From the IMG/VR virus record IMGVR_UViG_3300035181_001974: 64,000 nt of DNA; one strand, 5' to 3'. Positions 2,279-36,350 of this stretch are shown one piece after another (the first letter of the stretch is position 1; each line of letters opens with the position of its first letter). The DNA comes from a virus. The notes beneath the pieces are model-generated. The model was not told the origin of the DNA. It was given only the letters and a program-made list of their open reading frames with translations, and did not search any database. A program made the translations under genes and the position numbers.

Positions 2279-2752
2279 ATGTCTGGAACAGGCAAAATGT
2301 CACGTCAGCAACTGAAGGCAATCGTCAAAGAGTGCCTCGTTGAGATCTTGCAGGAAGGCCTGGGATCGGGTGCTGGCGCTTCGATGGGAATGACGCTGCC
2401 CGTCACTGAATCTCGCGCTCCTCAGCGTCCGGTCGCTCGAGGAAAGTCGCCGCTTGACATGCAGACATTGCCCAACGGGCGACGCCCGACTGAGGCACTG
2501 GCTCAGGCCATCAAAGCTGAGGCACGCGGCAACGCGCTGATGGCAGACATTCTGGCAGACACCGCCATGACGACCTTGCCCAAGATGTTGGGCGCCGGAG
2601 ACTCAGCGGCTCGTCCGTCTGAAGGCACCCAGTCCCGCGTCGTGCAGGAAGAAAAGTTCGTTGGCTCACCTGAAGAGGTTTTTGGTGAAGAGGCGGCGTC
2701 AAAGTGGGCCAACCTGGCTTTCATGGATGCACCGGCCAAGAAAACCGCGTAA
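2279..2752 (+). CDS. Small protein with a CTS-like N-terminus (family member 1)
   Basis: N-terminus M(SGTGK)MSRQQLKAIVKE resembles the MKITxxQLRxIIRE family; the rest is low-complexity. Confidence 0.5.
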   Translation: MSGTGKMSRQQLKAIVKECLVEILQEGLGSGAGASMGMTLPVTESRAPQRPVARGKSPLDMQTLPNGRRPTEALAQAIKAEARGNALMADILADTAMTTLPKMLGAGDSAARPSEGTQSRVVQEEKFVGSPEEVFGEEAASKWANLAFMDAPAKKTA

Positions 2753-2806
2753 TCGCGGGGTGATGCCTATTTAGACGTAGCACTAAACGCAGGAGAGGGT
2801 GCATAG

Positions 2807-3058
2807 ATGAAGCTCACGTCAAAGCTACTCAAGAAGATCATTGAAGAAGAAGTCGGTAAGTTCGGGGACATGGAAGACCCGGAGAAGCGCGCCAAGGACA
2901 CCGACGAGGTGGATGCGGACGAGTATGCTGACGCTCTTGAGAAGAAGATCGACTACGCCAAGGCGTTGAAGGTCGAAGAGTTGCGCCTTCGCGCTCGTCT
3001 CAACAAGATCGTCGAGACCAGGGCCCGGGTTATGAAGTCGATCCGTAAGGGCGTCTGA
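2807..3058 (+). CDS. Small acidic protein with a CTS-like N-terminus (family member 2)
   Basis: N-terminus MKLTSKLLKKIIEEE. Strong RBS AGGAGAGGG. Highly charged 83-aa product. Confidence 0.6.
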   Translation: MKLTSKLLKKIIEEEVGKFGDMEDPEKRAKDTDEVDADEYADALEKKIDYAKALKVEELRLRARLNKIVETRARVMKSIRKGV

Positions 3059-3073
3059 TCAAGGAGAACGAAG

Positions 3074-3637
3074 ATGCCTGCTGGTAAGGGAAAGTACACG
3101 ACATACGTTCCGCCGAAGTCACCGCGGAGGACGTTTTTTGAGAACCTCTTCAAGGGGGACTCGACGACGTCGCCACCGTTCTACGGCGTGGACCAGGCCG
3201 ACGCCTACAAGTACGCGGCCAAGGAGGGTAACGACATCCTCCGTGCTGCCGCTACTTCAGGCATTCAGGCTGGCGATGCGCAGCACTTCCCGGATGGTGT
3301 TGATTTCACCTACGGTGGCGCCAAGGCATCGATTCAGGCTCCTGACACATCGAAGGGTGCTGATGACGCTTGGGTCAACGCAGGAGATCCTGCGAACTCC
3401 TACGTTCCTGACCTATCATCTCCTGGGCCGGGCAAGACAGACGGCGTCGACAAGTCGGCAAATCCGAAGATCAAGTCTTCTGATGTTAAGCCCACCTACG
3501 TGCCCGGCGGACCGAACACGGGAACTCGTTCCCCGACGGCCACGAGTGGCAAGGTCCATGATGCGAATACCCTGGGCGACGCAGGCACCATCACATCTAT
3601 GCCAGATCCCAAGTCGGGTCTGGAACAGTTCAAGTGA
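3074..3637 (+). CDS. Hypothetical low-complexity protein (187 aa)
   Basis: AAGGAG RBS 7 nt upstream of the ATG. The overlapping alternative frame 3138..3686 is Arg/Ser-rich and looks spurious. Confidence 0.5.
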   Translation: MPAGKGKYTTYVPPKSPRRTFFENLFKGDSTTSPPFYGVDQADAYKYAAKEGNDILRAAATSGIQAGDAQHFPDGVDFTYGGAKASIQAPDTSKGADDAWVNAGDPANSYVPDLSSPGPGKTDGVDKSANPKIKSSDVKPTYVPGGPNTGTRSPTATSGKVHDANTLGDAGTITSMPDPKSGLEQFK

Positions 3638-3658
3638 TGTGAAACTGCATCACGGGAT

Positions 3659-3667
3659 GATACTTAC
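3659..3667 (+). promoter_or_regulatory. GATACTTAC motif 21 nt upstream of the scaffold gene (candidate late-promoter element)
   Basis: Member of a recurrent NATAYTTAS motif seen upstream of many structural genes. Confidence 0.25.
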
Positions 3668-3687
3668 TGCAGCAGGGAAACGGTAGC

Positions 3688-5691
3688 ATGTCAAAGCAGC
3701 TGTACGAAGAGGCTCTAGCAGATGCCAAGCGATTGAAGGAAGTCGCTGAGGATAATGCTAGGCGTACCCTGATCGAGGCAGTGACCCCGAGGATTCGGGA
3801 TCTGATCGAGAAGGAGCTCCTCAAGGAGCACGGTGATTTCGATGATGACGATGATGTCGAAGTCGTTGAAATCGTTTCAGGTGCTCCGGGCACCCCGGAC
3901 AAGCCGGGCGACTTGGTCACTGACACTGCTCCCGTCGGCGCGGTTCCTGCAGCCGGCGATGGTGGCACGGCGGCGGCTGCCATCTCAGTCCCTGATGCAG
4001 AAGGAAAGGTCACGCTCGACCTTGATGCGTTGGCGACAGACCCCATCGGTGCAGCCGTCCCTGCACCTGTCTTTGGGCAGCCTACGTCAGTCGATGGAGA
4101 TGAATACGAGCTTAGCCTTGAATCCGTGGAAGCCTTGACGCCGGTCGCCAAGGCAACCAAGTCAGGAATCATCAAGGAACTCGAAGCCGGTCTCTACCGG
4201 CTCGGTGAGCAACTGCAAGCATTCAAGGCCGCCCATAAGGTGGTCAAGGAGTCTCGTGGTTACTCAGAGCAAATCACTCATATGATTTCACGAGTGGAGA
4301 ATATGTATGACTACGTGCAGGAGGCGGTAACGGATCCCGCACGGAAGAGTTCATACGAAGCGAAACTCGAAACGTACTTCAAAGAACTCAGCAAGCTCCA
4401 GGAGCAGAAGATGTCGAAGAAGAGCCTCAAAGATTTGATGAATGAAGGCGATGTGACGCTGAAGCTCACTGGCCTGCCCGATGAGATTGACCTTGATTCG
4501 GTCGGTGTTGACTTGATCACTGGCGAAGACGAAGACGGCGAGGGCGGTGAAGATCTTGACCTCGGCGCCGGCGAAGAAGGCGGCGAAGAAGGCGATGAAG
4601 AGGGTGGCGAGGACATGGATCTTGGCGACCTCGACATGGGCGGTGAGGACCAGGGTCAGGATGACCAGATGGAGTCACGCCGGCTCAGCGACGACACGAT
4701 TGTCGAAATTGACGAGAGCATGCTCCGCCGTGAGATTGCTCGGATGAAGTCCCTCCGCGAGGATGCGGTCCCGTCCACCAAGGGCGCCGGCGTTGACGCA
4801 GTCATTGATCAGTTCGGCGGCGGCAAGTCGGAAGGCGATCCCTGGCTCGACGGTGAGGTCACCACGGAGTCCGATGAGGGTGACGAGGATGACGACCAGC
4901 TCGACGAGATCGATGGCGAACTGACGATGGATGAAGGCGACGACGACCAGGACGATGACCAGCTTGATGAGACGGACTTCGGAATGGATCAGGCCGAGGA
5001 TTCTCGTGAGGCGGGCGGCAATGTCGCTCCGGCTTCGATGGGTCCGGGCGCTGAGTCTGGCAAGGAATCGCGCGAGCCAGGTGCAACGATGGAGGCGCTG
5101 AAGCGTCGCGTCGGCTTCGAGAAGCGCCTGCAGGAGAGGATTAAGACCCGCGCTGCTGCCTTGAAGAAGGAAGCCACTCGTGCGACGGCAAAGAAGGATT
5201 CACGTAAGGTTGCTGCCCTAAAGAAGGAGCACGCTGCCCTGCACGGCCGCTTCACCGAGTCGGTGATGCGTGTCAAGAAGATGACGAAGACGCTGGCGGA
5301 AGTCGCGTCTCGCAATGGTGCTCGCCTGAATGGCAGCCCGATCCGGCCCGCGGAAGGAAAGGCCGACGCAAACCTCCGCAACAAGTTGGCAGAAACGAAT
5401 CTGTTCAACGCGAAGCTGGTCTTCACGAACAAGTTGCTCCAGAACGAGGCACTCTCGCGCAAGCAGAAGGCTGAGATCATCGAGCGGCTCGATGAGGCGA
5501 AGAGCCTCCGTGAGGCCAAGCTCATCTACGAGAGCCTGACCAAGACTTTGGCAGGCACTTCCCGTCCTCTGGTAGAGTCCGCCGGCCGCAAGGTCATCGG
5601 TTCGGCCTCACGGGCAACTCGCCCCGCCTCGACTAAGCTCGATGAGGGCTACGAGACGGATCGATGGGCACGCCTCGCTGGCATCAAGTGA
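3688..5691 (+). CDS. Prohead scaffolding protein, extremely acidic with coiled-coil segments
   Basis: 667 aa with long D/E/G tandem repeats and K/E-rich helical segments. Lies between the protease and major capsid genes, as T4 gp22 does. Confidence 0.65.
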   Translation: MSKQLYEEALADAKRLKEVAEDNARRTLIEAVTPRIRDLIEKELLKEHGDFDDDDDVEVVEIVSGAPGTPDKPGDLVTDTAPVGAVPAAGDGGTAAAAISVPDAEGKVTLDLDALATDPIGAAVPAPVFGQPTSVDGDEYELSLESVEALTPVAKATKSGIIKELEAGLYRLGEQLQAFKAAHKVVKESRGYSEQITHMISRVENMYDYVQEAVTDPARKSSYEAKLETYFKELSKLQEQKMSKKSLKDLMNEGDVTLKLTGLPDEIDLDSVGVDLITGEDEDGEGGEDLDLGAGEEGGEEGDEEGGEDMDLGDLDMGGEDQGQDDQMESRRLSDDTIVEIDESMLRREIARMKSLREDAVPSTKGAGVDAVIDQFGGGKSEGDPWLDGEVTTESDEGDEDDDQLDEIDGELTMDEGDDDQDDDQLDETDFGMDQAEDSREAGGNVAPASMGPGAESGKESREPGATMEALKRRVGFEKRLQERIKTRAAALKKEATRATAKKDSRKVAALKKEHAALHGRFTESVMRVKKMTKTLAEVASRNGARLNGSPIRPAEGKADANLRNKLAETNLFNAKLVFTNKLLQNEALSRKQKAEIIERLDEAKSLREAKLIYESLTKTLAGTSRPLVESAGRKVIGSASRATRPASTKLDEGYETDRWARLAGIK

Positions 5692-5741
5692 TTGGTGCAT
5701 GAACGATATCTGATCAACTGAAAGTCACGGAGAAAAAGACA

Positions 5742-7643
5742 ATGTCTTCAAAGTTTTTTACACTGGACCAGCTGGCCCAGGGCATCCGCGAGAAGCACGT
5801 CGGTGCTGAGCGTGCCCGTCTTGTTGAGAAGTGGAGCCGTACTGGCTTGCTCCGCGGTCTCGACGGTTTCAAGCGCGAGACGATGGCGCAGCTCCTGGAG
5901 AACCAGGCTGCCCAGGTCCTGAAGGAGTCGAACTCCCTGTCCACTGGCGGCGGCGCTGTCGCTTCCTCGGGTCAGATCCAGGGCTTCTCGAACATCGCCT
6001 TCCCGATCGTCCGCCGCGTCTTCGGTGGCCTCGTTGCAAACGAGCTTGTCTCGATTCAGCCGATGAGCCTACCGTCTGGTCTGATCTTCTATCTCGATTA
6101 CACCTACGGCTCGAACGTTGGTGGTGATGCTGGCTCGCAGCTTAGTAACTCCTCGGCCTACGAGACTTACCAGCGTGGCCAGTCGATCTACAACAACCCG
6201 ACCGGCAAGGGCATCCAGTCTGGATCACTCGCCACGGGTGGTATGTACGACCTGGTGAATGTCGGTTACTCGAAGGTGCACTCGGCCTCGCTGGGTGTCT
6301 CGGGTTCGAACCTCGACCTTGGCGCATGGACCGGTGCCAACAACGCTTGGGCCGCCGGCGGCATCGTGGCCTCGAGCACGGACTTCTCGGGCACCAACGC
6401 CCGCATGTTGCAGTTCGATCCGCAGGTTGAGGTCGACCTGGGCAGCAACCTCCTGGATGTAACCTTCGTCCACCTCTCGGTCGCGGCAATCGCAGCCCAG
6501 ATCCCGAAGGGTGACTTCCTTGCTCCGGAGCAGATCGCTCTCTTCGGCTTCCAGGCGAACAACGGCGCCGTTGAGTGGGGTGACTCCTACCAGTCGGGCA
6601 AGGGCCTGCTGAACCTCCGTCGTCTGAACAAGCGCGGTGACTGGAACGGCTCGGTCTTCACGCCGAACCCGCTGAATGGTTCGCACATTCAGTTCGTGCT
6701 GAAGCTGTCGAACGGCGGCTCGGTTCCAACGCTGAACACGGCGACGCAGAAGGTTTCGATGGCGATCGCCGACGCCCTCATGGTCGATGGTGGCTCGGGC
6801 GCGACCTTGACTGTTCCCTCCTTCGAGACGGACTTCTCGGTGACCCCGGCTCCGGCCATCCCCGAGATCGATATCAAGATCGAGTCGATCGCAATCACCG
6901 CGACAACCCGCAGGCTCCGCGCTCGCTGGTCGCCTGAACTCGCACAGGACCTCAACGCGTACCACTCGATGGACGCTGAGGTCGAGCTGACGAGCATCCT
7001 TTCGGAGCAGATCGCTCTCGAGATCGACCGCGAGATCTTGAATGATCTCGTCTCTCAGGCCAACGGCGCGAACTTCTTCTGGTCGCGTTCGCCGGGCCGC
7101 TTCGTGAACAAGCTGACGGGTGACCGTCAGCAGCTGGCGAGCTCCTTGAGTATCGGCCCGCAATTCACGGGCACGGTCCGCGAGTGGTACGAGACGTTGA
7201 TCGAGACGATCATCGACGTGGCGAACACCATTCACCGTAAGACCCTTCGCGGCTCGGCCAACTTTATGGTCACCGGCCCGGACGTCTGCACCATCCTCGA
7301 GGCTTCCACGCTGTACAAGCCGAAGTTCTCGATCGATGGCGAGGGACAGGTTGGCTCTCCGTTTACCATTGGTGCGGAAGCGATCGGCACGGTGTCCAAC
7401 CGCTTCACGGTCTACAAGGACCCGTACTTCCCCCGCAACAAGATCCTGATCGGCTACAAGGGCGGCAGCTATCTCGAGACGGGTTACGTGTACGCCCCGT
7501 ACGTGCCACTGATCGTCACCCCGACGATTTTTGCGCCGGAAGACTTCACGCCGCGCAAGGGTGTCATGACCCGATACGGCAAGAAGATGGTCCGCACGGA
7601 CTTCTACGGGACCGTCACAGTGTTGGACATGAACGTCATCTGA
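5742..7643 (+). CDS. Major capsid protein (T4 gp23-like)
   Basis: Blocks shared with T4 gp23: ...WSPELAQDLNAYHSMDAEVELTSILSEQIALEIDREI..., IGYKGGSYLETGYVYAPYV..., ...MTRYG.... Followed by a terminator. Confidence 0.9.
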   Translation: MSSKFFTLDQLAQGIREKHVGAERARLVEKWSRTGLLRGLDGFKRETMAQLLENQAAQVLKESNSLSTGGGAVASSGQIQGFSNIAFPIVRRVFGGLVANELVSIQPMSLPSGLIFYLDYTYGSNVGGDAGSQLSNSSAYETYQRGQSIYNNPTGKGIQSGSLATGGMYDLVNVGYSKVHSASLGVSGSNLDLGAWTGANNAWAAGGIVASSTDFSGTNARMLQFDPQVEVDLGSNLLDVTFVHLSVAAIAAQIPKGDFLAPEQIALFGFQANNGAVEWGDSYQSGKGLLNLRRLNKRGDWNGSVFTPNPLNGSHIQFVLKLSNGGSVPTLNTATQKVSMAIADALMVDGGSGATLTVPSFETDFSVTPAPAIPEIDIKIESIAITATTRRLRARWSPELAQDLNAYHSMDAEVELTSILSEQIALEIDREILNDLVSQANGANFFWSRSPGRFVNKLTGDRQQLASSLSIGPQFTGTVREWYETLIETIIDVANTIHRKTLRGSANFMVTGPDVCTILEASTLYKPKFSIDGEGQVGSPFTIGAEAIGTVSNRFTVYKDPYFPRNKILIGYKGGSYLETGYVYAPYVPLIVTPTIFAPEDFTPRKGVMTRYGKKMVRTDFYGTVTVLDMNVI

Positions 7644-7672
7644 CGTTCACTAGGGAAATCCTAAGGCTTGAG

Positions 7673-7701
7673 GGCCCGCAAACGCGGGCCTTCGCCTGTT
7701 T
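7673..7701 (+). terminator. Rho-independent terminator after the major capsid gene
   Basis: 7-bp GC stem GGCCCGC / GCGGGCC with an AAAC loop, followed by TTCGCCTGTTT. Confidence 0.6.
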
Positions 7702-7715
7702 AAGCACTAACGATT

Positions 7716-8183
7716 GTGTACAGTGCAATTGCTCAGGACGCTGGAATACGATTGAACTGTATGTGGCTATTCACGTTGGACGGTTTTTACAGTGCCGTTC
7801 AGGACAAAAAGGACGAGCGCATCATCTGGGTTCGCACACGAGTGCGAGAAGATTTGGTGCGTCTCATTGAGACCTACGAGGTCAATTCATCTCCGATTGA
7901 GGAGGACTGCGGCACGGACTACAAGTACCGCGTCGCCGTGTGGCGCGAGGAGTGGTCCCGAGTCGTTGCAGAGTGTGCTCTCGAAATCGACTACACAAAC
8001 TTCAAGGCTGAAGTCAAGGAAACCTTGGGCAAGGAACGTGCCGACATTCTCGGAAACGTCTGGTGGCAACTCTTCCAGTTGCAGCTCGACGAGGCCGCCA
8101 AGTACCTCTATGGCTTTATTAGAAGGCCCCTAGAAAAATCTTCTGATAATCGGACGGTGTCTAACCCTGGCCGAGATGTGTGA
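7716..8183 (+). CDS. Hypothetical protein (155 aa); start uncertain (GTG 7716 or ATG 7761)
   Basis: ORF only; no recognisable motif. Confidence 0.4.
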   Translation: MYSAIAQDAGIRLNCMWLFTLDGFYSAVQDKKDERIIWVRTRVREDLVRLIETYEVNSSPIEEDCGTDYKYRVAVWREEWSRVVAECALEIDYTNFKAEVKETLGKERADILGNVWWQLFQLQLDEAAKYLYGFIRRPLEKSSDNRTVSNPGRDV

Positions 8184-8291
8184 ATAAATGATCCAAAGAT
8201 CTGAAATGATTTTGTGACGTGTACATGATCCACTTGGGCGGGTAATGTTCTACTACGGGCACGGAATCAACCTGCCTAAGGAGATTATCCC

Positions 8292-8549
8292 ATGAGCCGA
8301 TCCAACATCTCGACGAACCGCAACGCACGCATCAACAGCCGTGAGGACCGCAAGGGCAACATCCGGACCGAGACCGTCCTTCGTGACGAAGGTGCAATGT
8401 TGTTCGCGGCGTCGACCAACCCTCGCACGAACGCGACGTCGGTCTTCATCGACTTCCCGGAAGGTGCGCTGCGGTTGACGGGTGCCGAGGCGCGCACCAT
8501 GTACCGCCTCCTGCACAAGCACTACAGCGCGACCAACAAGTCGCGCTAA
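8292..8549 (+). CDS. Hypothetical basic protein (85 aa)
   Basis: AAGGAG RBS. A GC hairpin (8575-8600) follows. Confidence 0.5.
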   Translation: MSRSNISTNRNARINSREDRKGNIRTETVLRDEGAMLFAASTNPRTNATSVFIDFPEGALRLTGAEARTMYRLLHKHYSATNKSR

Positions 8550-8621
8550 TCCCGTAAGGGAAGTGCATTGCTGCGGCCGGGTGCCTACGGGTTCCCGGCC
8601 TTGCGGCGTTGAGAGGCAAAC

Positions 8622-9221: not shown

Positions 9222-9224
9222 TTA

Positions 9225-11280: not shown

Positions 11281-11505
11281 ATGGAAGTCCAGAAGATCGA
11301 CCTCTATGCACCGATCATGGCGGCCCGTAAGGGCCCGCCACCCATCGCCTTGCGCGTCGGCGTTCAACCCGCTGACGTTCACACCGTCGGTGGTCCACTC
11401 GTCTCATCGGTCAAAGCTGAGACCTACGTTTTGTTGTCTGCGCTGCCGGAAGAGCTACGTCGCCGCGTAGAGACCGCAGTCCAGGCGCTGATCGCGGGGC
11501 AGTGA
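11281..11505 (+). CDS. Hypothetical protein (74 aa)
   Basis: ORF; its start overlaps the upstream stop region. Confidence 0.4.
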   Translation: MEVQKIDLYAPIMAARKGPPPIALRVGVQPADVHTVGGPLVSSVKAETYVLLSALPEELRRRVETAVQALIAGQ

Positions 11506-11792
11506 TGGGTCACAACGACAAGAAGGCGAAGCGGGTCCAGATGTCACCATTGGTGATCACTGGGTTCATTAAGAAAGAAAATGGCACGTACGTGCGTGCC
11601 ACACGGATCTATACGCGTGAGTGTGTGCCTGATAAGCCTGGAGATTCTGACAGGCCTCCCGGCATCCTCGTCACCCTGCAACGCATGATCATTCATGGAC
11701 GCTATGTGCCTGTCAAACGCCGTGAGAAGCACCAATGCGTTTGGTTCGATCCCAATGACATTAGGCCAACGTATCTGAGGCGGGTGGCGTGA
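11502..11792 (+). CDS. Hypothetical protein (96 aa)
   Basis: ORF with 4-nt overlaps at both ends (ATGA junctions). Confidence 0.45.
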   Translation: MMGHNDKKAKRVQMSPLVITGFIKKENGTYVRATRIYTRECVPDKPGDSDRPPGILVTLQRMIIHGRYVPVKRREKHQCVWFDPNDIRPTYLRRVA

Positions 11793-29198: not shown

Positions 29199-32100
29199 AT
29201 GCCCGAGCAGACTTTCAGGTCGCCCAACTTTTTCGAGCGCGAGATTGACATTTCGACCCCGACACCCGTCGGTCCGGTCGGAACGCCTGCCGGCGTTGTC
29301 GGCACCGCAAACAGGGGACCTGCGTTCGTCCCTGTCACGGTCGGGAACTTCGATCAGTTCATTGCCACATTCGGCAACCTTGATCCAAAGCTCTTTGGTC
29401 CGTATGCGGTCAACGAGTTTCTAAAGCATCGCAGCGCATTGACCTATCTCAGGGTCCTGGGCGCGGGTGCCAACGCAACGCAGTCAGACATCGCCAACAC
29501 GTTGCAGACGGGTCGAGTTCTCTCGGCTGGCATGCACCTGGATGGCACTCCGGCCGTTGACGACAAGCTGGGCCGCCACAACGGCGCAATCCAGTTCTTG
29601 GCAGCTCAGCACACCTTGCAGAGCGATGAGGCCTATGGAATCCCGATGTTCACGGACAACGATTCCTACTCGGGATCGACCGTCAACCTGGTCCGCGGCA
29701 TGGTGATGCTGCCGACCACCGCGCGCCTCATGGTCCTGGATGGCAACGGCACCGCCGTCGGCGCCTTCAACGGCAGCAACGTTGACTCGGCCTTGATGGT
29801 TGGTGGCAAGTTCAAACTCGCGATTTCTTCGACCTTGGGCAATGCCTTCTGGAACACGGATGGCAACCCGGGCGTCAGGATCTTCACGGCCTCACTTAAT
29901 CCGACGAGCCCAGACTACTTCGCCAAGATCTTGAACACGGATCCTGACAAGTTCGTCCAGGAGCAGCACCTGGTCTATGCAGACTTCCCGGTCGATGATG
30001 AGCTCGCCACTGCGACTGTGGTCGGCGTCCTCTCGGGCTCCAACAACACCAGCAGCACCTCGGGTGACAAGACCCTTCCGATGAGGAAGGTCTTTGGAGC
30101 CTTCGACACGCGTTACCGTGCACCGTCCACGACGTACTTCATCTCGCAGCCATTCGGCACGACAGAGTACGACCTCTTCAAGTTCGAGGCATTGGACGAC
30201 GGCGAATACGCCAACAACCTCTTCAAGATCGCCATCACGGACCTCAAGGCTTCGCTGGACGATTCCAACCCGTACGGCACCTTCACCGTCCAGATCCGCG
30301 ATTGGAACGACACGGACACCAATCCGTTGGTCCTGGAGATGTTCCCAGGCTGTTCACTGGATCCGATGTCAGATCACTACATCGGCAAGTTGATCGGCGA
30401 TCGCAAGGTCAGCTATAACTTTGACACGACGTTGGACTCTGAACGCCGCGTGGTCGCCACAGGCAAGTACCCGAACGTCTCGCAGTATGTCCGCGTTGTC
30501 ATCGCGGACCAGGTTGAGCGTGCTTTGGTGCCTCAGAAGTCGCTACCCTTCGGCTTCCGCGGCGCGGTGGTCCCGAAGACCAACGACCTGTTGACCGACG
30601 CTTCACCGTCTTCCGCCACTGCACGGTTGGCTGGCGTCCTGGGCGTGGGTTCCGCGTCTTCCCTGTCGGGTTCGATCATCCCGCCCGTTCCTTTCCGCAC
30701 CAAGGTGACGAAGGGCGATGCTCCGGCCGGCGCAGCCTGGCTTGGCCAGCCCGGTTCGACTGAGCTGACACTCAGCCAGTTCTACTGGGGCGTCAAGTTT
30801 GAGCGCAACACTCTGCCGCTCAATCCCAACCTCATCAACGACAAGAACGGTCTGCTCGAGTCGTACACCAAGTTCATGGGCATTCCTAAGTTGGACGCCT
30901 TGGTCTCTGGCTCGGGCGCAGACCAACTGAACAACAACAAGTTCACGTTGGCGAAGGTTGCACTGTCCAATGGTGCCCTGACTGACATCACCTCGTCGGT
31001 TCAGGATCACATGAAGGAAGCAGCTTACATCCGTAACGGCAAGCTCGACCTGACCAACTACACCATCAAGGATCCGGTCCTCGGACCGCGTGTCACATTG
31101 GCCACCTTGTTGGCTCAAGGCAGCGCCTCGGACTTCAATCGCTTTTCGCAGTTCACCAAGTTCATCACCTTCATGGCTGGTGGCTGGGACGGCGTCAATG
31201 TTCTCGACCGCGATGCGAGGAGGATGAATGACAAGGCCTCGTCCTTCGACGCTGGCGGCGGTGCTGCGGTCGGTTACTCGGCGCCTGGTCTGGGTTACAA
31301 CCCGACCGGGACGGGTCAGCAGAATGCGACGGTCGCTTCCTACAAGACGGCAATCGACATCATGACTGATCCTCTGGTCGTCAACACGAACATCCTGGCG
31401 TTGCCGGGCATCCGCGAGAGCTTTATCACAGAGTATGCCCTCAACAAGGTCCGCGACTACGGTCTGGCCTACTACGTGATGGACATCCCATCCTACGATG
31501 ATTCCTCGAACCGTCTGTACGATGACTCGGCAGCACGGCCCTCGATCGATCAGACGGCAAACCAGTTCGATGCTCGAGCGTTGGACAATAACTACGCTGG
31601 CACGTACTACCCGGACGTCTTCGTTGACGATGCGACCAACCGCCGCCGCGTCAAGGTTCCGGCCTCGGTCGCCGCCATGGGTGCCTTGGCCTTCAACGAT
31701 CGCGTTGCCTACCCATGGTTCGCGCCTGCCGGCTTCAACCGCGCAGCGCTGGACTTTGTCACCAACGTCAGCGTGCGTCTCAATGTGCCCGATCGTGACA
31801 GGCTCTACGATTCACGAATCAACCCGATCGCAACCTTCCCGAGGCTAGGCTTCGTCATCTATGGCCAGAAGACGTTGCAGATCAACAAGTCGGCACTCGA
31901 CAGGGTCAACGTCCGTCGCCTCCTCCTGGAGGTCAAGCGCATCATCATGGGTATCGCTCAGAAGCTGGTCTTTGAGCAGAACACCCCCGAGGTGCGTAAC
32001 AAGTTCGTGGCCGACGCAATCCTGCAACTAGGTCTAATTCAGTCCCAGGCTGGCGTGGAAGCGTTCCAAGTTATCATGAACGAGACGAACAACACGCAGG

Positions 32101-32213
32101 AAGACATCGACCTCAACCGCCTCCGCGGTCGGATCGTCGTGGTGCCGACGAGGGTCATCGAGTATATCGCGATCGACTTCATCATCACTAACAGCGGCGT
32201 CCAGTTCGTGTGA
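29199..32213 (+). CDS. Tail sheath protein, paralog 1 (1004 aa)
   Basis: N-terminus ...FRSPNFFEREIDISTP...GTANRGPAFVPV...FG matches the T4 gp18 N-terminal pattern (SPGIELKET...GKFQWGPAF...FG). C-terminus GQKTLQ...DRVNVRRLL...NETNNTQEDIDLNRLRG...V.P.R matches the sheath C-terminal domain. Confidence 0.85.
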   Translation: MPEQTFRSPNFFEREIDISTPTPVGPVGTPAGVVGTANRGPAFVPVTVGNFDQFIATFGNLDPKLFGPYAVNEFLKHRSALTYLRVLGAGANATQSDIANTLQTGRVLSAGMHLDGTPAVDDKLGRHNGAIQFLAAQHTLQSDEAYGIPMFTDNDSYSGSTVNLVRGMVMLPTTARLMVLDGNGTAVGAFNGSNVDSALMVGGKFKLAISSTLGNAFWNTDGNPGVRIFTASLNPTSPDYFAKILNTDPDKFVQEQHLVYADFPVDDELATATVVGVLSGSNNTSSTSGDKTLPMRKVFGAFDTRYRAPSTTYFISQPFGTTEYDLFKFEALDDGEYANNLFKIAITDLKASLDDSNPYGTFTVQIRDWNDTDTNPLVLEMFPGCSLDPMSDHYIGKLIGDRKVSYNFDTTLDSERRVVATGKYPNVSQYVRVVIADQVERALVPQKSLPFGFRGAVVPKTNDLLTDASPSSATARLAGVLGVGSASSLSGSIIPPVPFRTKVTKGDAPAGAAWLGQPGSTELTLSQFYWGVKFERNTLPLNPNLINDKNGLLESYTKFMGIPKLDALVSGSGADQLNNNKFTLAKVALSNGALTDITSSVQDHMKEAAYIRNGKLDLTNYTIKDPVLGPRVTLATLLAQGSASDFNRFSQFTKFITFMAGGWDGVNVLDRDARRMNDKASSFDAGGGAAVGYSAPGLGYNPTGTGQQNATVASYKTAIDIMTDPLVVNTNILALPGIRESFITEYALNKVRDYGLAYYVMDIPSYDDSSNRLYDDSAARPSIDQTANQFDARALDNNYAGTYYPDVFVDDATNRRRVKVPASVAAMGALAFNDRVAYPWFAPAGFNRAALDFVTNVSVRLNVPDRDRLYDSRINPIATFPRLGFVIYGQKTLQINKSALDRVNVRRLLLEVKRIIMGIAQKLVFEQNTPEVRNKFVADAILQLGLIQSQAGVEAFQVIMNETNNTQEDIDLNRLRGRIVVVPTRVIEYIAIDFIITNSGVQFV

Positions 32214-32235
32214 TGAACAAATCCGAACTGTGAAA

Positions 32236-32282
32236 TGCGGCCCTAACTAGCAGCTTGGCTCTAGTTTAGGGCCGCTTTCTTT
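32236..32282 (+). terminator. Rho-independent terminator between the two sheath genes
   Basis: Long hairpin GCGGCCCTAACTAG ... CTAGTTTAGGGCCGC followed by TTTCTTTCG. Confidence 0.6.
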
Positions 32283-32307
32283 CGCGGTATGGATTGCAAA
32301 ACGATCT

Positions 32308-32316
32308 GATACTTAC
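32308..32316 (+). promoter_or_regulatory. GATACTTAC motif upstream of sheath gene 2, downstream of the inter-sheath terminator
   Basis: Recurrent motif; a terminator followed by this motif suggests an independent transcription start. Confidence 0.3.
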
Positions 32317-32336
32317 AACGCAGAGGCTACGAGAAG

Positions 32337-35300
32337 ATGGCACAGCTAAAGTTCGGAAGCGCTGGCGTGACGGCAAGGGAAATCGATCTTTCGGGTCCAG
32401 TGACCCAGGAACCAGTCGGTGTTCCCGCAGGCGTTATTGGCACGGCAGTGAAAGGACCTGCATTCATCCCGGTCACCGTCGGCACGATCGATGACTTCTA
32501 CGCCAAGTTCGGTAAGACCGACGGCAAGAAGTTCGGCCCGTTGGCTGTCACTGAGTGGATGCGCAAGGCGCAGGCAGTGACCTATCTCAGGGTCCTGGGC
32601 GCAGGCGATGGCCGCACGCGGAATGATGACGGCTCGGTCAACGGCGCTGGTTTCACTGTCGGACAGCAGTTGCCGCGCGCCTCAGATGGCACGCTGGACG
32701 GTAACCCGTACGCCAATTCGGGCGCTTTGGGTTCTCCTCTGGGTCGAGCCTACTTCCTCGGCGCGTTCATGTCAGAGTCTGCTGGTTCGACTATCTTCTC
32801 GTCGGCCGGCATCCAAGGATTGGGTTCAACGACTCCCGGTGCAGACACTGCCGCGGTCATCGTTCGAGGCATGCTGATGGCCCCCTCGGGCGTTATCCTC
32901 CGCGTGTCTTCTTCGACAGCCGGTAACTCTTCAGCCCCTCCGTCGAACCTCGTTGCTACCGATGGCACCGCTCACGGTGGCTTGGTCGGCACCGTCGTCC
33001 TGATGGACGCAGGTGTCGCAAAGTCGGACTTCGTGCTGCTGTTGAACGGTCACCAGGGAACGGACCCGCTGTACCCGAACGTTATCACGGCTTCGTTCGA
33101 CATGACGAGCCCGAACTACTTTGCCAACGTCCTGAACACGGATCCCTACAAGATTCAGCAGGCTGGTCACTTCCTGTATGCATCCTGGGACGTTCACCCT
33201 GCTACTGCAGTGGTCACCGGCTCGGGCCTCGTTTCCGCGCTGTCAGGTGCAGGTGCGGCCACGGCGCCCAAACCGGGTGCTGAAACTGCTGTCTTCCTGA
33301 CGACAGCTTCTCTTGCACGCAACGTTGGTTCGAGCACGGTCCCGAACTACGAGGCCTTCACTGATCGTTTCAGCCACGCTAAGTCCCCGTGGATCATCTC
33401 GCAGAAGTTTGGTGGCTCGCCTTCCAATCTCTTCCGGTTGCATGCTCTGGATGCCGGCGCCAATGTCTCGACGCTATACAAGATCTCGATCGAGAACATC
33501 ACCCCGTCGACGGACCCAGCCAACAAGTTTGGTTCCTTCGACCTGGTTCTCCGCGACTGGAACGACCGCGATGCTGCTCAGCAGCCGCTGGAACAGTTCC
33601 GCGGCGTCAACTTGGATCCGAGCTCGGATCGCTACATCGCCAAGATTGTCGGCGATGCTCACGTGTTCTTCGACTTCGACCGCGCCGAGCCGGCCCAGAA
33701 GATCGTCTTCGACGGCAACTACCCGGCACAGTCGAACCTCGTCCGCGTCGAGGTCGATCTTGGGGTTGAGAACGGCACCGTCGATCCGACGGCACTGCCC
33801 ATGGGCTTCCGCGGCGTCGAGCACCTCGTCACCTCTGGCTCTGCTCCTCTGACAAGCGTCACTGACGGCAGCTTGACTGCGGCCACCTACCTGAAGCGCG
33901 CAATCGAGCCGCCGCTGCCGATGCGTTCCAACATCACCGCAGGTTCTGGCGCCAAGGTCCAAGTCAACCCATTGCTCTACTGGGGCGTCCAGTTCGAGCA
34001 CGTGGCCAGCCTGGCGACTCCGAATGCATCGACCTTGAAGAACGCTTCGTTGAAGTCGTTTGCCAAGTACTTCCCGGACTTCTCGGAGATCAACCAGAAC
34101 GTGTCTGTCGGTGACAACACCGGCGCGGTCGACACCGGCGCGTGGGGCATCATTGATGCCGACAGGTTCTGCAACAACCTGTTCACCCTCGAGAACCTGC
34201 AGGTCGTCACGGCATCCACGACGTTGGCTGACCCGACGCAGTGGGTCTCAGCACAGTACGTGCGTGGTGGTGCGATCACGGCTAACGATGCCAACAAGAC
34301 GCGGGCCTTCAAGACAGACGATCTCGTCCAGGCCAACCGTCGGTTCGCCAAGTTCAGCTTCCTATTGCAAGGCGGCTTCGACGGAATCCTACTGTTCGAC
34401 AAGGACTCAGCAGAGATCAACAACGCAGCCATCACGGCTGACATGAACGCCACCAACCGTGGCAGGGACCAGGGCTCAAACGTCCGGACCTACGCCAAGG
34501 CGCTGGAAATCATGAAGAACGTGGTGAACACAGACATCCAGTTGCTGGCGATCCCTGGCATCCGTCACCCGATCGTCACCAACGCAGCGGCTGACGCGGT
34601 CAAGGAACGGTTTGATGCTCTCTACATCATGGACATCGAGCAGTTCGACAACACTGACACTGAGGTCTTCACTGATTCGCAGCTGCCGTCTGTCACCTAC
34701 ACCGCCAACTCGTTCGCCAACCGCGCGATGGACAACAACTTCGCCGCTGCCTACTTCCCAGACGTGGTGATGCCGGATCCTAACACCAAGACCAACGTCG
34801 TCGCGCCACCTTCTGTCGCGGTCCTCGGCGCCCTGGCCTTGAATGATGCGGTCGGTCACCCCTGGTTTGCTCCAGCCGGTGTCACCCGCGGTGCGTTGCC
34901 GACTGTCCTCGAGGCCCGTGTTCAGCTGTCGAAGCCTAACATGGACGCACTCTACGATGTCGCCATCAACCCATTGGTCGCCTTCCCGGGAACTGCCGTC
35001 GGTGGCACCAACCCGAAGGGCGGCGTGGTGGTTTGGGGTCAGAAGACCCTGCAGGCCGCGGCCTCGGCTCTCGATCGCGTCAACGTTCGCAGGTTGCTGA
35101 TCGAGATCCGCCGCCAGGTCCGCGACATCTCGCAGACGATCATTTTCGAGCCCAACAGGGCTGCCACCCTGGCCCGCTTCACGGCCGCGGTTACCCCGCG
35201 TCTGCAGCGCATCCAGGCTCAGGCGGGCCTCGAGCGGTTCAAGGTTATTATCGACTCCAGCACCACGACGCAGCAGGACATCGAGAACAACACGATCCGC

Positions 35301-35384
35301 GGTAAGATCTATGTCCAGCCGACCAAGTCGATCGAGTTCGTCTCCTTGGACTTCGTGGTCACCAACAACATCACCCAGCAGTGA
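32337..35384 (+). CDS. Tail sheath protein, paralog 2 (1015 aa)
   Basis: Same N-terminal (ITAREIDLSGP...GTAVKGPAFIPV...FG) and C-terminal (GQKTLQ...DRVNVRRLL...TTQQDIENNTIRG...V.P) sheath signatures as paralog 1. Both genes are preceded by GATACTTAC. Confidence 0.85.
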   Translation: MAQLKFGSAGVTAREIDLSGPVTQEPVGVPAGVIGTAVKGPAFIPVTVGTIDDFYAKFGKTDGKKFGPLAVTEWMRKAQAVTYLRVLGAGDGRTRNDDGSVNGAGFTVGQQLPRASDGTLDGNPYANSGALGSPLGRAYFLGAFMSESAGSTIFSSAGIQGLGSTTPGADTAAVIVRGMLMAPSGVILRVSSSTAGNSSAPPSNLVATDGTAHGGLVGTVVLMDAGVAKSDFVLLLNGHQGTDPLYPNVITASFDMTSPNYFANVLNTDPYKIQQAGHFLYASWDVHPATAVVTGSGLVSALSGAGAATAPKPGAETAVFLTTASLARNVGSSTVPNYEAFTDRFSHAKSPWIISQKFGGSPSNLFRLHALDAGANVSTLYKISIENITPSTDPANKFGSFDLVLRDWNDRDAAQQPLEQFRGVNLDPSSDRYIAKIVGDAHVFFDFDRAEPAQKIVFDGNYPAQSNLVRVEVDLGVENGTVDPTALPMGFRGVEHLVTSGSAPLTSVTDGSLTAATYLKRAIEPPLPMRSNITAGSGAKVQVNPLLYWGVQFEHVASLATPNASTLKNASLKSFAKYFPDFSEINQNVSVGDNTGAVDTGAWGIIDADRFCNNLFTLENLQVVTASTTLADPTQWVSAQYVRGGAITANDANKTRAFKTDDLVQANRRFAKFSFLLQGGFDGILLFDKDSAEINNAAITADMNATNRGRDQGSNVRTYAKALEIMKNVVNTDIQLLAIPGIRHPIVTNAAADAVKERFDALYIMDIEQFDNTDTEVFTDSQLPSVTYTANSFANRAMDNNFAAAYFPDVVMPDPNTKTNVVAPPSVAVLGALALNDAVGHPWFAPAGVTRGALPTVLEARVQLSKPNMDALYDVAINPLVAFPGTAVGGTNPKGGVVVWGQKTLQAAASALDRVNVRRLLIEIRRQVRDISQTIIFEPNRAATLARFTAAVTPRLQRIQAQAGLERFKVIIDSSTTTQQDIENNTIRGKIYVQPTKSIEFVSLDFVVTNNITQQ

Positions 35385-35397
35385 TTGAGAGCTGACA

Positions 35398-35610
35398 GTG
35401 AAGATCACTTCACAAAAGCTGCGTAAGATCATCAAGGAAGAAGCCGGCAGGGCTGAGTTGATCAGCACCCTGTCGGCCGCCTTCGCGGCCACGCTCAAGT
35501 CTCGCGTTTTGAACATGGTCAACAGGATGACGTTTGAGACTGCAGAAGCCCTGGGCGACGGGCCTTTCGAGCGTTCTCGATTTGAGGACATTGTCGCGCG
35601 CGCGCCCTGA
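35398..35610 (+). CDS. Small protein with a CTS-like N-terminus (family member 3), GTG start
   Basis: N-terminus VKITSQKLRKIIKEE. Confidence 0.45.
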   Translation: MKITSQKLRKIIKEEAGRAELISTLSAAFAATLKSRVLNMVNRMTFETAEALGDGPFERSRFEDIVARAP

Positions 35611-35636
35611 TGGTCAAATTCAGCGGGAAATAACAG

Positions 35637-35987
35637 ATGAAGATCACCCAAAAGCAGCTCCGTCAGATCATCCGTGAGACACTTGAAGAGCAGGAGCTCG
35701 ACGAGATCACGATGGAACAAGGCAAGGTCCAGGCTCCTCTGCAGGCGCTCCACGGGAGTCTATCGTCTGCTAAACAGGCGCTCGGCAAGGCGGGTGCCAA
35801 GAAGGCGATCTCTGAGTTGCTGCAGAATGCTGGCCCGGGCAGCGACGTCATGGACAAGGCGCAGAAGCTATTGAGGGCAATCACTCAGATCGAGTCCAAC
35901 ATCGATGCTGTGATGAAGTGGCTTGGCAATCCCCAAAGCACGGCCTTGACGAAGGATCCTTGGGCCCATGTTGGTAAGCACGGCTGA
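35637..35987 (+). CDS. Small protein with a CTS-like N-terminus (family member 4)
   Basis: N-terminus MKITQKQLRQIIRET. Confidence 0.55.
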   Translation: MKITQKQLRQIIRETLEEQELDEITMEQGKVQAPLQALHGSLSSAKQALGKAGAKKAISELLQNAGPGSDVMDKAQKLLRAITQIESNIDAVMKWLGNPQSTALTKDPWAHVGKHG

Positions 35988-36217
35988 TGCGACTCATTTC
36001 TCCGAATAGGCTCCGCGAGCTGATCAGAGAGGCAGCATTGCAGCTGCGTGATGAGGGGTTCGTGCCCACTGAGGTCGTACCGCTCGCTGAGTCTGTGTCC
36101 GACCCGCGTGTATCTCGCATTACCGAACAGGAGCTACACCGTCTAGTAAAAGAAGAATTTTCGAGGGCCATTCTTGGGTCTCAAGTCGGGCTTCTGAAGC
36201 CGAGCAAGAGCGGTTGA
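35987..36217 (+). CDS. Small protein with a CTS-like N-terminus (family member 5)
   Basis: N-terminus MRLISPNRLRELIREA. Confidence 0.5.
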   Translation: MRLISPNRLRELIREAALQLRDEGFVPTEVVPLAESVSDPRVSRITEQELHRLVKEEFSRAILGSQVGLLKPSKSG

Positions 36218-36218
36218 G

Positions 36219-36350
36219 ATGAAGGCAACCATTGGACAGATCAGAAGGATCATTCGCGAAAAACTTGAGGCCGGTCGACAGGACTTTGCCGGCGCCCTCG
36301 ATGCCGTGATGGACAATGTCACAGGCAGCTTGAGATCGCTCACCAGCTAG
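36219..36350 (+). CDS. Small protein with a CTS-like N-terminus (family member 6, 43 aa)
   Basis: N-terminus MKATIGQIRRIIREK. Missing from the track because it is shorter than 60 aa. Confidence 0.4.
   Translation: MKATIGQIRRIIREKLEAGRQDFAGALDAVMDNVTGSLRSLTS

What the first reader, a model, noticed from the sequence alone, without database searches (positions are those of the whole stretch)
2279..36350. Family of six small proteins sharing a T4 capsid-targeting-sequence-like N-terminus that ends in the prohead-protease cleavage motif I-x-E
Six ORFs begin with closely related 12-15-residue leaders: MKLTSKLLKKIIEE (2807), MSRQQLKAIVKE (2279), VKITSQKLRKIIKE (35398), MKITQKQLRQIIRE (35637), MRLISPNRLRELIRE (35987) and MKATIGQIRRIIRE (36219). 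In T4, internal proteins IPI-III and Alt carry a ~10-aa N-terminal capsid-targeting sequence (MKTYQEFIAE) that ends in the gp21 cleavage site (L/I)-x-E. The window encodes a gp21-type protease at 718-1365. Its substrates, the gp23-like capsid protein and the scaffold, have GIRE/LIE sites near their N-termini. These small proteins are therefore candidates for packaged, proteolytically processed internal proteins that may be ejected into the host as anti-defence effectors. Four of them sit, unusually, between the sheath and tube genes.
Basis: partly seen in the sequence, partly recalled or inferred. Interest (0 to 1): 0.7.

Follow-up and report, generated by a model that had tools for sequence, protein, structure and literature searches.

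The report
Shared capsid-targeting-like leader on phage proteins
A distant, uncultured relative of phage T4 puts the same 14-residue N-terminal tag on many unrelated small proteins; the tag looks like T4's signal for loading proteins into the capsid and clipping them there, and it marks over 10,000 protein clusters in environmental phages, though packaging and cleavage are untested.

Summary
All six ORFs exist. A profile of the leader (consensus MKITKRQLRRIIKE|E) scores four of them at 21-29 bits, the 2279 ORF at 14.7 and the 35987 ORF at only 8.6. None of 61,868 shuffled N-termini exceeds 10.1 bits.

The same leader heads 384 distinct proteins in 151 of the 200 sequences held. Their remaining sequence falls into 269 unrelated clusters. 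Conservation stops right after Glu14. A profile search finds 10,362 protein clusters, all metagenomic, with no Pfam, NCBIfam or literature record.

The leader genes sit beside T4-type protease, portal, terminase, capsid and tube genes. The pattern hydrophobic-x-x-hydrophobic-hydrophobic-x-Glu matches the residues that drive targeting and processing in T4's capsid-targeting sequence. It also matches the clade's predicted capsid maturation site ([VL]L[KR]E|S/A).

Best reading (about 0.55): a prohead-targeting propeptide removed by the S77 protease. Packaging, cleavage, ejection and anti-defence roles are untested.

Corrections: ORF 36219-36350 is the 5' piece of a frameshifted ~98-aa gene. The position next to the tube gene is typical of this clade, not unusual. 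The cultured Flavobacterium phage immuto carries a 12-residue variant and offers a test system.

The parts
2279..2752 (+). Member A (157 aa, or 151 aa from Met at nt 2297). The leader is MSRQQLKAIVKE|C. It is a conserved orthologue family next to the prohead protease.
   Evidence: 14.7 bits. Homologues: L135 'MAKVKRSVLKQLIKECLVEIL', Mel-JY01 'YQKIVQEVVREVIAEN', immuto gp072 'MKKSQIVKAVQEVLEE'.
2807..3058 (+). Member B (83 aa). The leader is MKLTSKLLKKIIEE|E.
   Evidence: 21.4 bits. No Pfam, PHROG or NCBIfam family.
35398..35610 (+). Member C (70 aa, GTG start). The leader is MKITSQKLRKIIKE|E. It starts 13 nt after the stop of the second sheath gene.
   Evidence: 28.7 bits.
35637..35987 (+). 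Member D (116 aa). The leader is MKITQKQLRQIIRE|T. The cargo is predicted to be a three-helix bundle.
   Evidence: 27.5 bits. Only 4 full-length homologues in 5.8 billion proteins. In the AF2 model the leader is a low-confidence helix (residues 5-15), followed by a flexible stretch (18-29) and a bundle at 30-100 with pLDDT 71-87.
35987..36217 (+). Member E (76 aa). The leader is MRLISPNRLRELIRE|A, the weakest match, with a one-residue insertion. A second leader-like copy, SRITEQELHRLVKEE, lies at residues 44-58.
   Evidence: 8.6 bits for the N-terminal copy, 13.3 bits for the internal copy.
36219..36514 (+). It belongs to a conserved ~100-aa family found immediately upstream of the tube gene.
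   Evidence: tblastn with L049, L013 and L001 homologues in two frames. (identical in 4 independent assemblies). (25.9 bits).
37613..37891 (+). Possible seventh member G (92 aa). It has a 14-residue N-terminal extension MLRFRHLIKALVKE|H on a conserved domain. In more distant homologues the protein starts without this extension.
   Evidence: 16.6 bits. The start codon is uncertain: the longest ORF starts at 37586.
703..1365 (+). Prohead protease of the T4 gp21 type (Peptidase_S77). It is the presumed processing enzyme.
   Evidence: E 6.2e-25. (30% identity to T4 gp21, with ALGELDHP His and GISSRG Ser aligned to T4 His85 and Ser140).
3688..5691 (+). Presumed scaffold (T4 gp22 position). It is 667 aa, extremely acidic (net charge -57, pI 4.5) and carries 26 [LIV]-x-E sites. 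It is the presumed docking partner of the cationic leader.
   Evidence: It lies between the protease and the capsid gene. Its C-terminus is conserved in L104, L120 and L135. There is no family hit, so the assignment is an inference.
5742..7643 (+). Major capsid protein (Gp23 family). It has a leader-like N-terminus (FTLDQLAQGIRE|K) and a predicted maturation site VLKE62|SNS.
   Evidence: Gp23, E 1e-74. (the site [VL]L[KR]E|[SA] is conserved in clade capsid proteins). (this region aligns with T4 gp23 around FLTE65|A, offset by about 6 residues).

Best explanation
The 14-residue N-terminus (consensus M-K-I-T-K-R-Q-L-R-R-I-I-K-E) is most likely a capsid-targeting propeptide of the T4 type. Proposed steps:
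1. The genes are expressed with the structural genes.
2. The cationic amphipathic leader helix docks the attached protein onto the very acidic scaffold core of the assembling prohead.
3. The S77 (gp21-type) prohead protease cuts after Glu14 (P4-P1 = I-I-K/R-E). This frees the cargo inside the capsid, and the leader peptide is lost.
4. The freed cargo stays with the DNA as an internal protein and may enter the host at infection.

Shown: the leader exists; it is fixed at the N-terminus; it is under protein-level selection; it is attached to hundreds of unrelated cargos; it is encoded beside T4-type head genes; the protease with an intact catalytic His and Ser is present.

Inferred: docking to the scaffold, cleavage at Glu14, retention in the virion, ejection, and any effector role.

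Members with conserved cargo and fixed positions (the 2279 family beside the protease, the 36219 family beside the tube) may instead be prohead-core or assembly components, as T4 gp67 and gp68 are.
For: 1. Non-random and N-terminal. 445 N-terminal HMM hits of at least 18 bits against 0 of 61,868 shuffled decoys at or above 12 bits. The Met-to-Leu8 distance is exact in 76 of 90 cases.
2. Sharp boundary. Information is 2-4 bits per position up to Glu14, 1.5 bits at position 15, then at most 0.6.
3. Cleavage-site fit. Glu14 in 376 of 384, Asp in 1 of 384, Ile12 in 367 of 384. T4 gp21 cuts after Glu in I/L-x-E, and Asp at P1 blocks processing of the T4 CTS (PMC9026906; PMC12991175). The clade's capsid proteins keep [VL]L[KR]E|[SA] where T4 gp23 has FLTE|A.
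4. Same pattern as T4 leaders. IPII/IPIII MKTYQEFIAE|A, gp24 MAKINELLRE|S and Alt MELITELFDE|D all read hydrophobic-x-x-hydrophobic-hydrophobic-x-E. T4 residues 4 and 7 (targeting) and 8 and 10 (processing) map to Leu8, Ile11, Ile12 and Glu14.
5. Modular cargo. 384 proteins fall into 269 cargo clusters, 221 of them singletons. Only a few match any Pfam family (AAA_33/Zeta_toxin, FliG_C and some DUFs).
6. Genomic association. Of 119 loci found by the leader DNA pattern alone, 17 carry the S77 protease. About 12 of these have a leader ORF directly adjacent on the same strand. In other loci the commonest neighbours are T4-type portal (15) and terminase (14). L135 has 5 leader ORFs right after the capsid gene.
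7. Tight operon packing with the sheath, protease and scaffold genes in the window.
8. The protease has its catalytic His and Ser.
9. Protein-level selection: synonymous codon differences at conserved residues.
10. The AF2 model places the leader as a separate low-confidence helix joined by a flexible linker to a folded bundle.
11. A diverged homologue, P0004, shifts the Glu by one position but keeps L-I-E|S.
Against: - There are no proteomic or biochemical data for this clade. Every database member found is metagenomic.
- [LI]-x-E is a low-information motif.
- Similarity to the T4 CTS is a pattern, not a significant alignment. The leader is strongly cationic (mean +3.2), whereas the T4 CTS is not.
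- P1' is mostly Glu (276 of 384), while the capsid site has Ser or Ala.
- Some leader genes lie near replication or metabolic genes (DNA polymerase III alpha, RNR, primase) and near tail genes. This would also be true of T4 ipI-III and alt.
- Many database proteins carry 2-4 leader copies in one ORF with the internal Met kept. A strictly N-terminal signal would not predict this, although a polyprotein cut at each site would allow it.
- Cargo is mostly acidic (median pI 4.85), whereas my recollection is that T4 IPII and IPIII are basic (not checked here).
- The AF2 model has only moderate confidence (mean pLDDT 67.6).
Confidence: 0.55

Rival explanations
1. The leader is a shared amphipathic helix for another common interaction, such as binding nucleic acid, the inner membrane, a chaperone or a host factor. 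It is not cleaved and has nothing to do with capsid loading.
For: The helix is strongly cationic and amphipathic: six Lys/Arg residues and a hydrophobic face formed by Met1, Thr4, Leu8, Ile11 and Ile12 (sequence). Some leader genes sit in non-structural neighbourhoods. Internal copies occur within single ORFs.
Against: A generic binding helix does not explain the near-absolute Glu (never Asp) at the exact end of the conserved block, or the fixed distance from Met. It does not explain the match to the capsid maturation site. It does not explain the repeated direct adjacency to the prohead protease, portal, terminase and capsid genes.
Confidence: 0.2
2. The proteins are prohead-core or scaffold accessory proteins (the role of T4 gp67 and gp68). 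They are targeted to the core and then degraded or expelled at maturation. They are not retained or ejected cargo.
For: Leader ORFs very often occupy the position directly upstream or downstream of the protease gene, as genes 67 and 68 do in T4. The 2279 family is conserved beside the protease in L135, Mel-JY01 and immuto. T4 gp67 contains an internal ...IDLIKEE... stretch.
Against: The cargo is extremely diverse and turns over fast (221 singleton clusters). There are up to 12 copies per locus, and some carry enzyme-like domains such as AAA_33 kinase-like. Essential assembly parts would not be expected to behave this way. No sequence similarity to gp67 or gp68 was detected.
Confidence: 0.12
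3. This is an ordinary paralogous family. Tandem duplication, followed by fast divergence of everything except the N-terminus (or homogenisation by gene conversion), produced the pattern. The N-terminus is not a targeting signal.
For: The genes lie in tandem arrays with near-identical leaders (L059, L065, L077). Some cargo clusters are related to one another.
Against: Cargo lengths range from 33 to 467 aa. Predicted folds and domains differ, and there are 269 unlinked clusters. Codons differ at conserved residues, which argues against recent conversion. In the 37613 family the leader looks like an added extension. The leader is conserved across phages whose terminases are only 43-46% identical.
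Confidence: 0.08
4. The conserved element acts at the RNA or DNA level, as a translation-initiation enhancer or a recombination cassette. The peptide is incidental.
For: The element always lies at the very start of the ORFs. Tandem arrays could exchange cassettes through a shared 5' end.
Against: In the window, leader pairs are only 53-67% identical at the nucleotide level, with synonymous differences at conserved residues. The conserved unit is defined in amino acids and ends at a codon boundary. Internal copies exist.
Confidence: 0.03

Closest known systems
T4 capsid-targeting sequence (CTS) of internal proteins IPI, IPII, IPIII and Alt, and the gp24 propeptide
   Same: Both are short N-terminal leaders (10-19 aa in T4, 12-14 aa here) shared by otherwise unrelated proteins. 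Both end in the gp21-type site (I/L)-x-E. Both show the same hydrophobic-x-x-hydrophobic-hydrophobic-x-E pattern. In both cases the phage has a gp21-type protease, an acidic scaffold and a Gp23 capsid protein, and the cargo is hypervariable.
   Different: There is no significant sequence similarity to MKTYQEFIAE. The leader here is four residues longer and strongly cationic. The cargo is mostly acidic and unrelated to IPI-III or Alt. The family is far larger (up to 12 per locus, over 10,000 clusters in databases). Many genes lie inside the head and tail modules. Packaging and cleavage have not been shown.
T4 prohead core proteins gp67 and gp68
   Same: They are small proteins encoded directly beside the gene 21 protease, incorporated into the scaffold core and processed by gp21. 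Leader ORFs often occupy the equivalent position.
   Different: No detectable homology. gp67 and gp68 are single conserved genes, not a hypervariable multi-copy family. Their cleavage sites are not at a shared N-terminal leader.
Propeptides of phiKZ, 201phi2-1 and SPN3US ejection / inner-body proteins
   Same: These head proteins of jumbo phages carry N-terminal propeptides removed by a gp21-related protease after Glu. The paralogues gp53 and gp54 of SPN3US share an identical 15-residue N-terminus (PMC5694885).
   Different: Those propeptides are mostly over 100 residues, and the motif is (S/A/G)-x-E. The phages are chimalliviruses, not T4-type. There is no common leader across many families.
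Encapsulin cargo-loading peptides
   Same: A short conserved terminal peptide directs unrelated cargo into an HK97-fold shell (own knowledge, not tested here).
   Different: They are usually C-terminal, are not removed by a protease, and occur in bacterial nanocompartments rather than virions.

Membership tests
T4-type CTS-bearing internal head proteins | A short N-terminal propeptide conserved among proteins whose mature parts are unrelated | tested here: met
   A 14-aa leader is followed by a collapse of conservation after Glu14. 384 proteins fall into 269 cargo clusters.
T4-type CTS-bearing internal head proteins | The propeptide ends in the prohead-protease site (I/L)-x-E | tested here: met
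   Glu14 in 376 of 384. Ile, Leu or Val at P3 in 384 of 384 (Ile in 367). The T4 rule is taken from PMC9026906 and PMC12991175.
T4-type CTS-bearing internal head proteins | The genome encodes a gp21-type (S77) protease, a scaffold core and a Gp23 capsid protein | tested here: met
   The scaffold is assigned by position and composition only.
T4-type CTS-bearing internal head proteins | Sequence homology of the leader to the T4 CTS (MKTYQEFIAE) | tested here: inconclusive
   Only a shared hydrophobic/Glu pattern is seen. The leader HMM gives no hit above 7 bits in the two T4 stretches scanned, which include genes 18-24, alt and ipI-III. The peptides are too short for a significance test.
T4-type CTS-bearing internal head proteins | Mature part homologous to IPI, IPII, IPIII or Alt | tested here: not met
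   No Pfam, PHROG or NCBIfam match to any internal-protein or ADP-ribosyltransferase family.
T4-type CTS-bearing internal head proteins | Physical presence in the virion with the leader removed | not testable with these tools
   This needs virion proteomics. No cultured member with proteomic data was found.
T4-type CTS-bearing internal head proteins | Ejection into the host with the DNA, or an anti-restriction / anti-defence activity | not testable with these tools
   No homology to known anti-defence proteins. The function is untested.
T4 prohead core proteins gp67/gp68 | Sequence homology to gp67 or gp68 | tested here: not met
   No family hit for the 42-713, 2279-2752 or 2807-3058 products.
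T4 prohead core proteins gp67/gp68 | A small gene directly adjacent to the prohead protease gene in the head module | tested here: met
   In the window, 2279 and 2807 lie between the protease and the scaffold. About 12 of the 17 protease-bearing loci have a directly adjacent leader ORF.

The most novel reading that the evidence does not exclude
The leader is a portable capsid-loading and delivery tag used by a very large, almost entirely uncultured branch of T4-like phages. This branch includes jumbo and 'huge' phages; its nearest cultured relatives are Flavobacterium phage immuto and Microcystis phage Mel-JY01. On this reading the more than 10,000 leader-bearing protein clusters form a sequence-readable catalogue of proteins packed into capsids and injected into hosts. 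That would be a phage counterpart of a secretion signal, marking a huge and fast-evolving repertoire of effectors, including kinase-like enzymes and multi-unit polyproteins cut at each leader.
Probability: 0.3. Interest if true: 0.8.

Novelty: new variant of a known kind. Interest (0 to 1): 0.62.

Why it matters
If the leader works as inferred, one 14-residue motif would predict from sequence alone which proteins of thousands of uncultured aquatic phages are packed into the capsid and could be delivered into the host. At present that takes virion proteomics phage by phage. It would extend the T4 capsid-targeting principle, so far described mainly in T-even phages, to a distant and much larger branch of the superfamily. 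It would supply thousands of candidate early-acting effectors for anti-defence screens. It would also provide a second, different targeting tag for loading foreign proteins into phage capsids. The cultured Flavobacterium phage immuto carries a short variant of the leader, so the idea can be tested directly.

Tried and rejected
- Megablast of the first 12 kb against GenBank phages found nothing.
- tblastn with a 22-aa consensus leader against GenBank phages returned only LR756508 at E=6. My estimate is that a leader-only match cannot reach the E-value limit in a database of this size.
- Full-text search for six leader strings found 0 papers. Searches for 'capsid targeting' with cyanophage, metagenome or T4-like terms found nothing describing this motif.
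- Pfam, PHROGs and NCBIfam on the window proteins gave only sub-threshold hits (DEK_C, DUF5760, RelB-like) confined to the leader helix. I rejected these as helix-composition matches.
I re-ran it with 40 columns.
- The T4 late-promoter consensus TATAAATA is absent from the window. The sigma-70 and terminator scan was uninformative.
- The PDB sequence search with the 2279 protein gave no hit.
- The candidate eighth member at 39284 was rejected. The motif is internal to a conserved small ORF family.
- Mel-JY01's head module has no clear MKIT-type leader, only the protease-adjacent 2279-family homologue.
- I did not run a fold search on the AF2 model, because matches to a three-helix bundle at pLDDT 68 would mean little.

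Full report
**Observation**

ORF listing confirms all six ORFs and their N-termini. The strict core motif [LIVM][RK][RKEAQ][LIV][IV][KRE]E occurs eight times in the six-frame translation of the 64-kb window. Six of those are the named N-termini.

I built a profile from relatives' leaders. It scores the window members at 28.7 (35398), 27.5 (35637), 25.9 (36219), 21.4 (2807), 14.7 (2279) and 8.6 bits (35987). Shuffling residues 2-22 of 61,868 candidate N-termini gave no score above 10.1 bits. The 35987 member therefore rests on its place in the array, not on its own score.

Identical residues in different copies often use different codons, such as CGT/AGA/AGG for Arg and CTC/CTG/CTA for Leu. Conservation is therefore at the protein level.

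**Context in the window**

The window is a distant T4-type structural region.
- Peptidase_S77 protease at 703-1365 (E 6e-25), with T4 catalytic His85 and Ser140 conserved (residue numbers from PMC12991175).
- A peptide deformylase, a Gp23 capsid protein, two ~1000-aa sheath paralogues, a gp19 tube, a gp15-like protein and a T4 baseplate protein.
- No close GenBank phage. The nearest capsid and terminase relatives are an uncultured 484-kb phage (LR756508), Flavobacterium phage immuto and Microcystis phage Mel-JY01.
- The exact 35637 product occurs on contigs up to 309 kb.

Two members lie between the protease and the presumed scaffold. Four lie between the second sheath gene and the tube. Intergenic gaps are 0-54 nt, so they are most likely co-transcribed with the structural genes.

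**Relatives**

The tube protein has more than 570 relatives in IMG/VR, and I fetched 80 loci. Thirty-four of them contain leader ORFs, 91 in total, all on the tube strand. The consensus is MKITKRQLRRIIKEE.

Across the 200 sequences held:
- 445 N-terminal hits of at least 18 bits, giving 384 distinct proteins (median 109 aa, range 33-467).
- The sequence after residue 16 falls into 269 BLASTP clusters, 221 of them singletons.
- Only a handful of 112 cargo representatives match any Pfam family: AAA_33/Zeta_toxin-like, FliG_C, DUF6321, DUF6745. A few match unannotated PHROGs.

A 40-column profile reaches E 1e-8 in a 5.8-billion-protein database. A full HMMER scan of 1.84 billion cluster representatives finds 10,362 proteins at E of 0.001 or better. 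All named sources are metagenomes or MAGs. No Pfam or NCBIfam family and no paper describes the motif.

**Anatomy of the leader**

The distance from Met1 to Leu8 is exact in 76 of 90 regex-ascertained cases. Information content is 2-4 bits per position through Glu14. It falls to 1.5 bits at position 15 (Glu or Ala) and to 0.6 or less afterwards.

I also used an anchor that does not constrain the core: a start codon followed by [KR][ILVM][TS]. This gave Leu8 in 81 of 99, Ile12 in 71 of 99 and Glu14 in 70 of 99. Most exceptions are spurious ORFs.

In the full set, position 14 is Glu in 376 of 384 and Asp in 1. Position 12 is Ile in 367 of 384. One caveat applies: at least one copy in each pattern-found locus was selected on these residues.

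The leader carries a mean net charge of +3.2. The cargo is mostly acidic (median pI 4.85). The presumed scaffold has net charge -57.

**Comparison with T4**

I read the T4 sequences from NC_000866:
- IPII and IPIII: MKTYQEFIAE|A
- gp24: MAKINELLRE|S
- Alt: MELITELFDE|D
- IPI: ...STITE|A
- gp23: ...FLTE|AEIGG

All end in hydrophobic-x-x-hydrophobic-hydrophobic-x-Glu, or at least (I/L)-x-Glu. A review of the T4 work reports that CTS residues 4 and 7 carry targeting and residues 8 and 10 carry processing. It also reports that Asp at position 10 blocks cleavage but not targeting (PMC9026906). These four positions correspond to Leu8, Ile11, Ile12 and Glu14, the most conserved positions here. The near-total exclusion of Asp at position 14 fits a protease P1 requirement.

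Capsid proteins of this clade conserve [VL]L[KR]E|[SA] at about residue 62 (window: VLKE|SNS). This lies in the segment that aligns with the T4 gp23 cleavage region, offset by about six residues. The site shares the hydrophobic P4, Leu/Ile P3, basic P2 and Glu P1 of the leader. The window capsid protein also begins with a leader-like FTLDQLAQGIRE, but this is only partly conserved in relatives.

**Genomic association**

Among the 119 loci found only through the leader pattern, 17 encode a homologue of the window's protease. This is the most frequent shared protein. In about 12 of the 17, a leader ORF lies directly next to the protease gene on the same strand. That is the position of genes 67 and 68 in T4.
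- L120 has the protease flanked by four leader ORFs.
- L135 has five directly after the capsid gene.
- In loci that share nothing with the window, the commonest large neighbours are T4-type portal (15) and terminase (14).

Every recognisable context is a T4-type phage. Some loci also carry replication or metabolic genes nearby.

**Cultured relatives**

Phage immuto carries a shorter, 12-residue version:
- gp080 MKKSQLRQIIKE|A (252 aa, 21.8 bits)
- gp094 MKKSQLREIIRKE
- gp095 MKKSELVKLIKE|E
- gp114 MKLDLLKKLIKE|A
- gp072 MKKSQIVKAVQE|V (73 aa, between portal and protease)

Leader length thus runs 10 (T4), 12 (immuto) and 14 (this clade). No virion proteomics for immuto or Mel-JY01 was found. 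The huge phage LR756508 has a tandem array of four.

**Structure**

AlphaFold2 on the 35637 product, with four aligned sequences, gives mean pLDDT 67.6. Residues 5-15 form a low-confidence leader helix, residues 18-29 a disordered stretch, and residues 30-100 a three-helix bundle with pLDDT 71-87. This fits a detachable leader but is weak evidence. A diverged homologue, P0004, shifts the Glu by one residue yet keeps L-I-E|S.

**Interpretation**

The best-supported mechanism is a T4-type capsid-targeting propeptide removed by the S77 protease (confidence about 0.55). The steps after gene expression are all inferred: docking to the acidic core, cleavage at Glu14, retention and ejection. An anti-defence role is pure conjecture.

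Rivals:
- A generic amphipathic interaction helix that is not cleaved (0.2).
- Core or scaffold accessory proteins that are degraded rather than retained (0.12). This is most plausible for the conserved 2279 and 36219 families.
- Plain paralogy (0.08).
- An RNA- or DNA-level element (0.03).

The main points against the preferred reading:
- No proteomic data.
- The low information content of (I/L)-x-E.
- The cationic character of the leader and the Glu at P1', both unlike T4.
- Database proteins with 2-4 leader copies in one ORF, each internal copy keeping its Met. These could be polyproteins, recent fusions or gene-calling artefacts.

1. The 43-aa ORF at 36219 is the 5' fragment of a frameshifted ~98-aa gene that ends at 36514. 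The sequence is identical in four independent assemblies.
2. The 2279 leader is internal by six residues if the first ATG is used.
3. The position between sheath and tube is the rule in this clade, not an oddity.
4. A possible seventh member starts at 37613.
5. The likely capsid maturation site is VLKE62|S rather than GIRE17.

**Verdict**

This is a real, very widespread and apparently undescribed N-terminal leader family. It is best read as a new variant of the T4 capsid-targeting and processing signal. It is testable in a cultured phage. Interest 0.62.

Noticed in passing
window 36219-36514: The tube-adjacent leader gene is frameshifted near nt 36330. The 43-aa ORF and the following 44-aa ORF (36380-36514) together match full-length ~100-aa homologues. 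The sequence is identical in four independent assemblies, so this is a real pseudogene or a programmed shift, not an assembly error.
   Followed up: yes
window 36116-36160 (residues 44-58 of the 35987 ORF): A second, internal leader-like copy (SRITEQELHRLVKEE, 13.3 bits) lies inside member E. A GTG at 36095 could start a separate 40-aa product.
   Followed up: partly
P0130-P0154; L016:2042-2767; L144:4014-4706: Many database proteins carry 2-4 leader-plus-cargo units in one ORF, and each internal leader keeps its Met. They could be polyproteins cut at each leader, recent gene fusions, or read-through or merged gene calls.
   Followed up: partly
window 1773-2276: A peptide deformylase gene (Pep_deformylase, E 1.7e-48) sits inside the head module, between the protease and the first leader gene. 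It overlaps or abuts its neighbours.
   Followed up: no
window 29199-32213 and 32337-35384: Two tandem sheath paralogues of about 1000 aa each. T4, immuto and Mel-JY01 each have a single sheath gene in the stretches examined.
   Followed up: no
window about 39200-39480 (motif at 39284): A small ORF with YKRWFIERIVKELNK...SRALHQNTPDVR...PSRLRRFT is conserved in more than 45 related loci, between the baseplate-like gene and the NUDIX gene. Its function is unknown. It mimics the leader core but is not N-terminal.
   Followed up: partly
window 3688-5691: The presumed scaffold is unusually long (667 aa) and acidic (net -57), with long Asp/Glu/Gly tracts. Only its N- and C-terminal ends are conserved in relatives.
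   Followed up: partly
L207 (NC_055915) 1189-1947, 11356-11577; L208 19525-19944, 40294-41359: The cultured Flavobacterium phage immuto has five or six proteins with a shorter 12-residue variant of the leader (MKKSQLRQIIKE). All are annotated as hypothetical.
   Followed up: yes
related loci (five members of alignment A2): Tubulin/FtsZ-family genes, and also PrkA/SpoVR/DUF444, DNA polymerase III alpha and Volactin genes, occur within a few kb of leader arrays in related contigs.
   Followed up: no
window 37076-37225: A 49-aa ORF just downstream of the tube gene has a C-x2-C ... H-x4-H spacing (FKCPKCADYEIDNLDSLRIHCQKKH), which resembles a C2H2 zinc finger.
   Followed up: no
P0001 (= window 35637-35987): JGI names this protein 'seryl-tRNA synthetase'. 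No Pfam, PHROG or NCBIfam search here supports that name; my guess is that it comes from helical or coiled-coil similarity.
   Followed up: no
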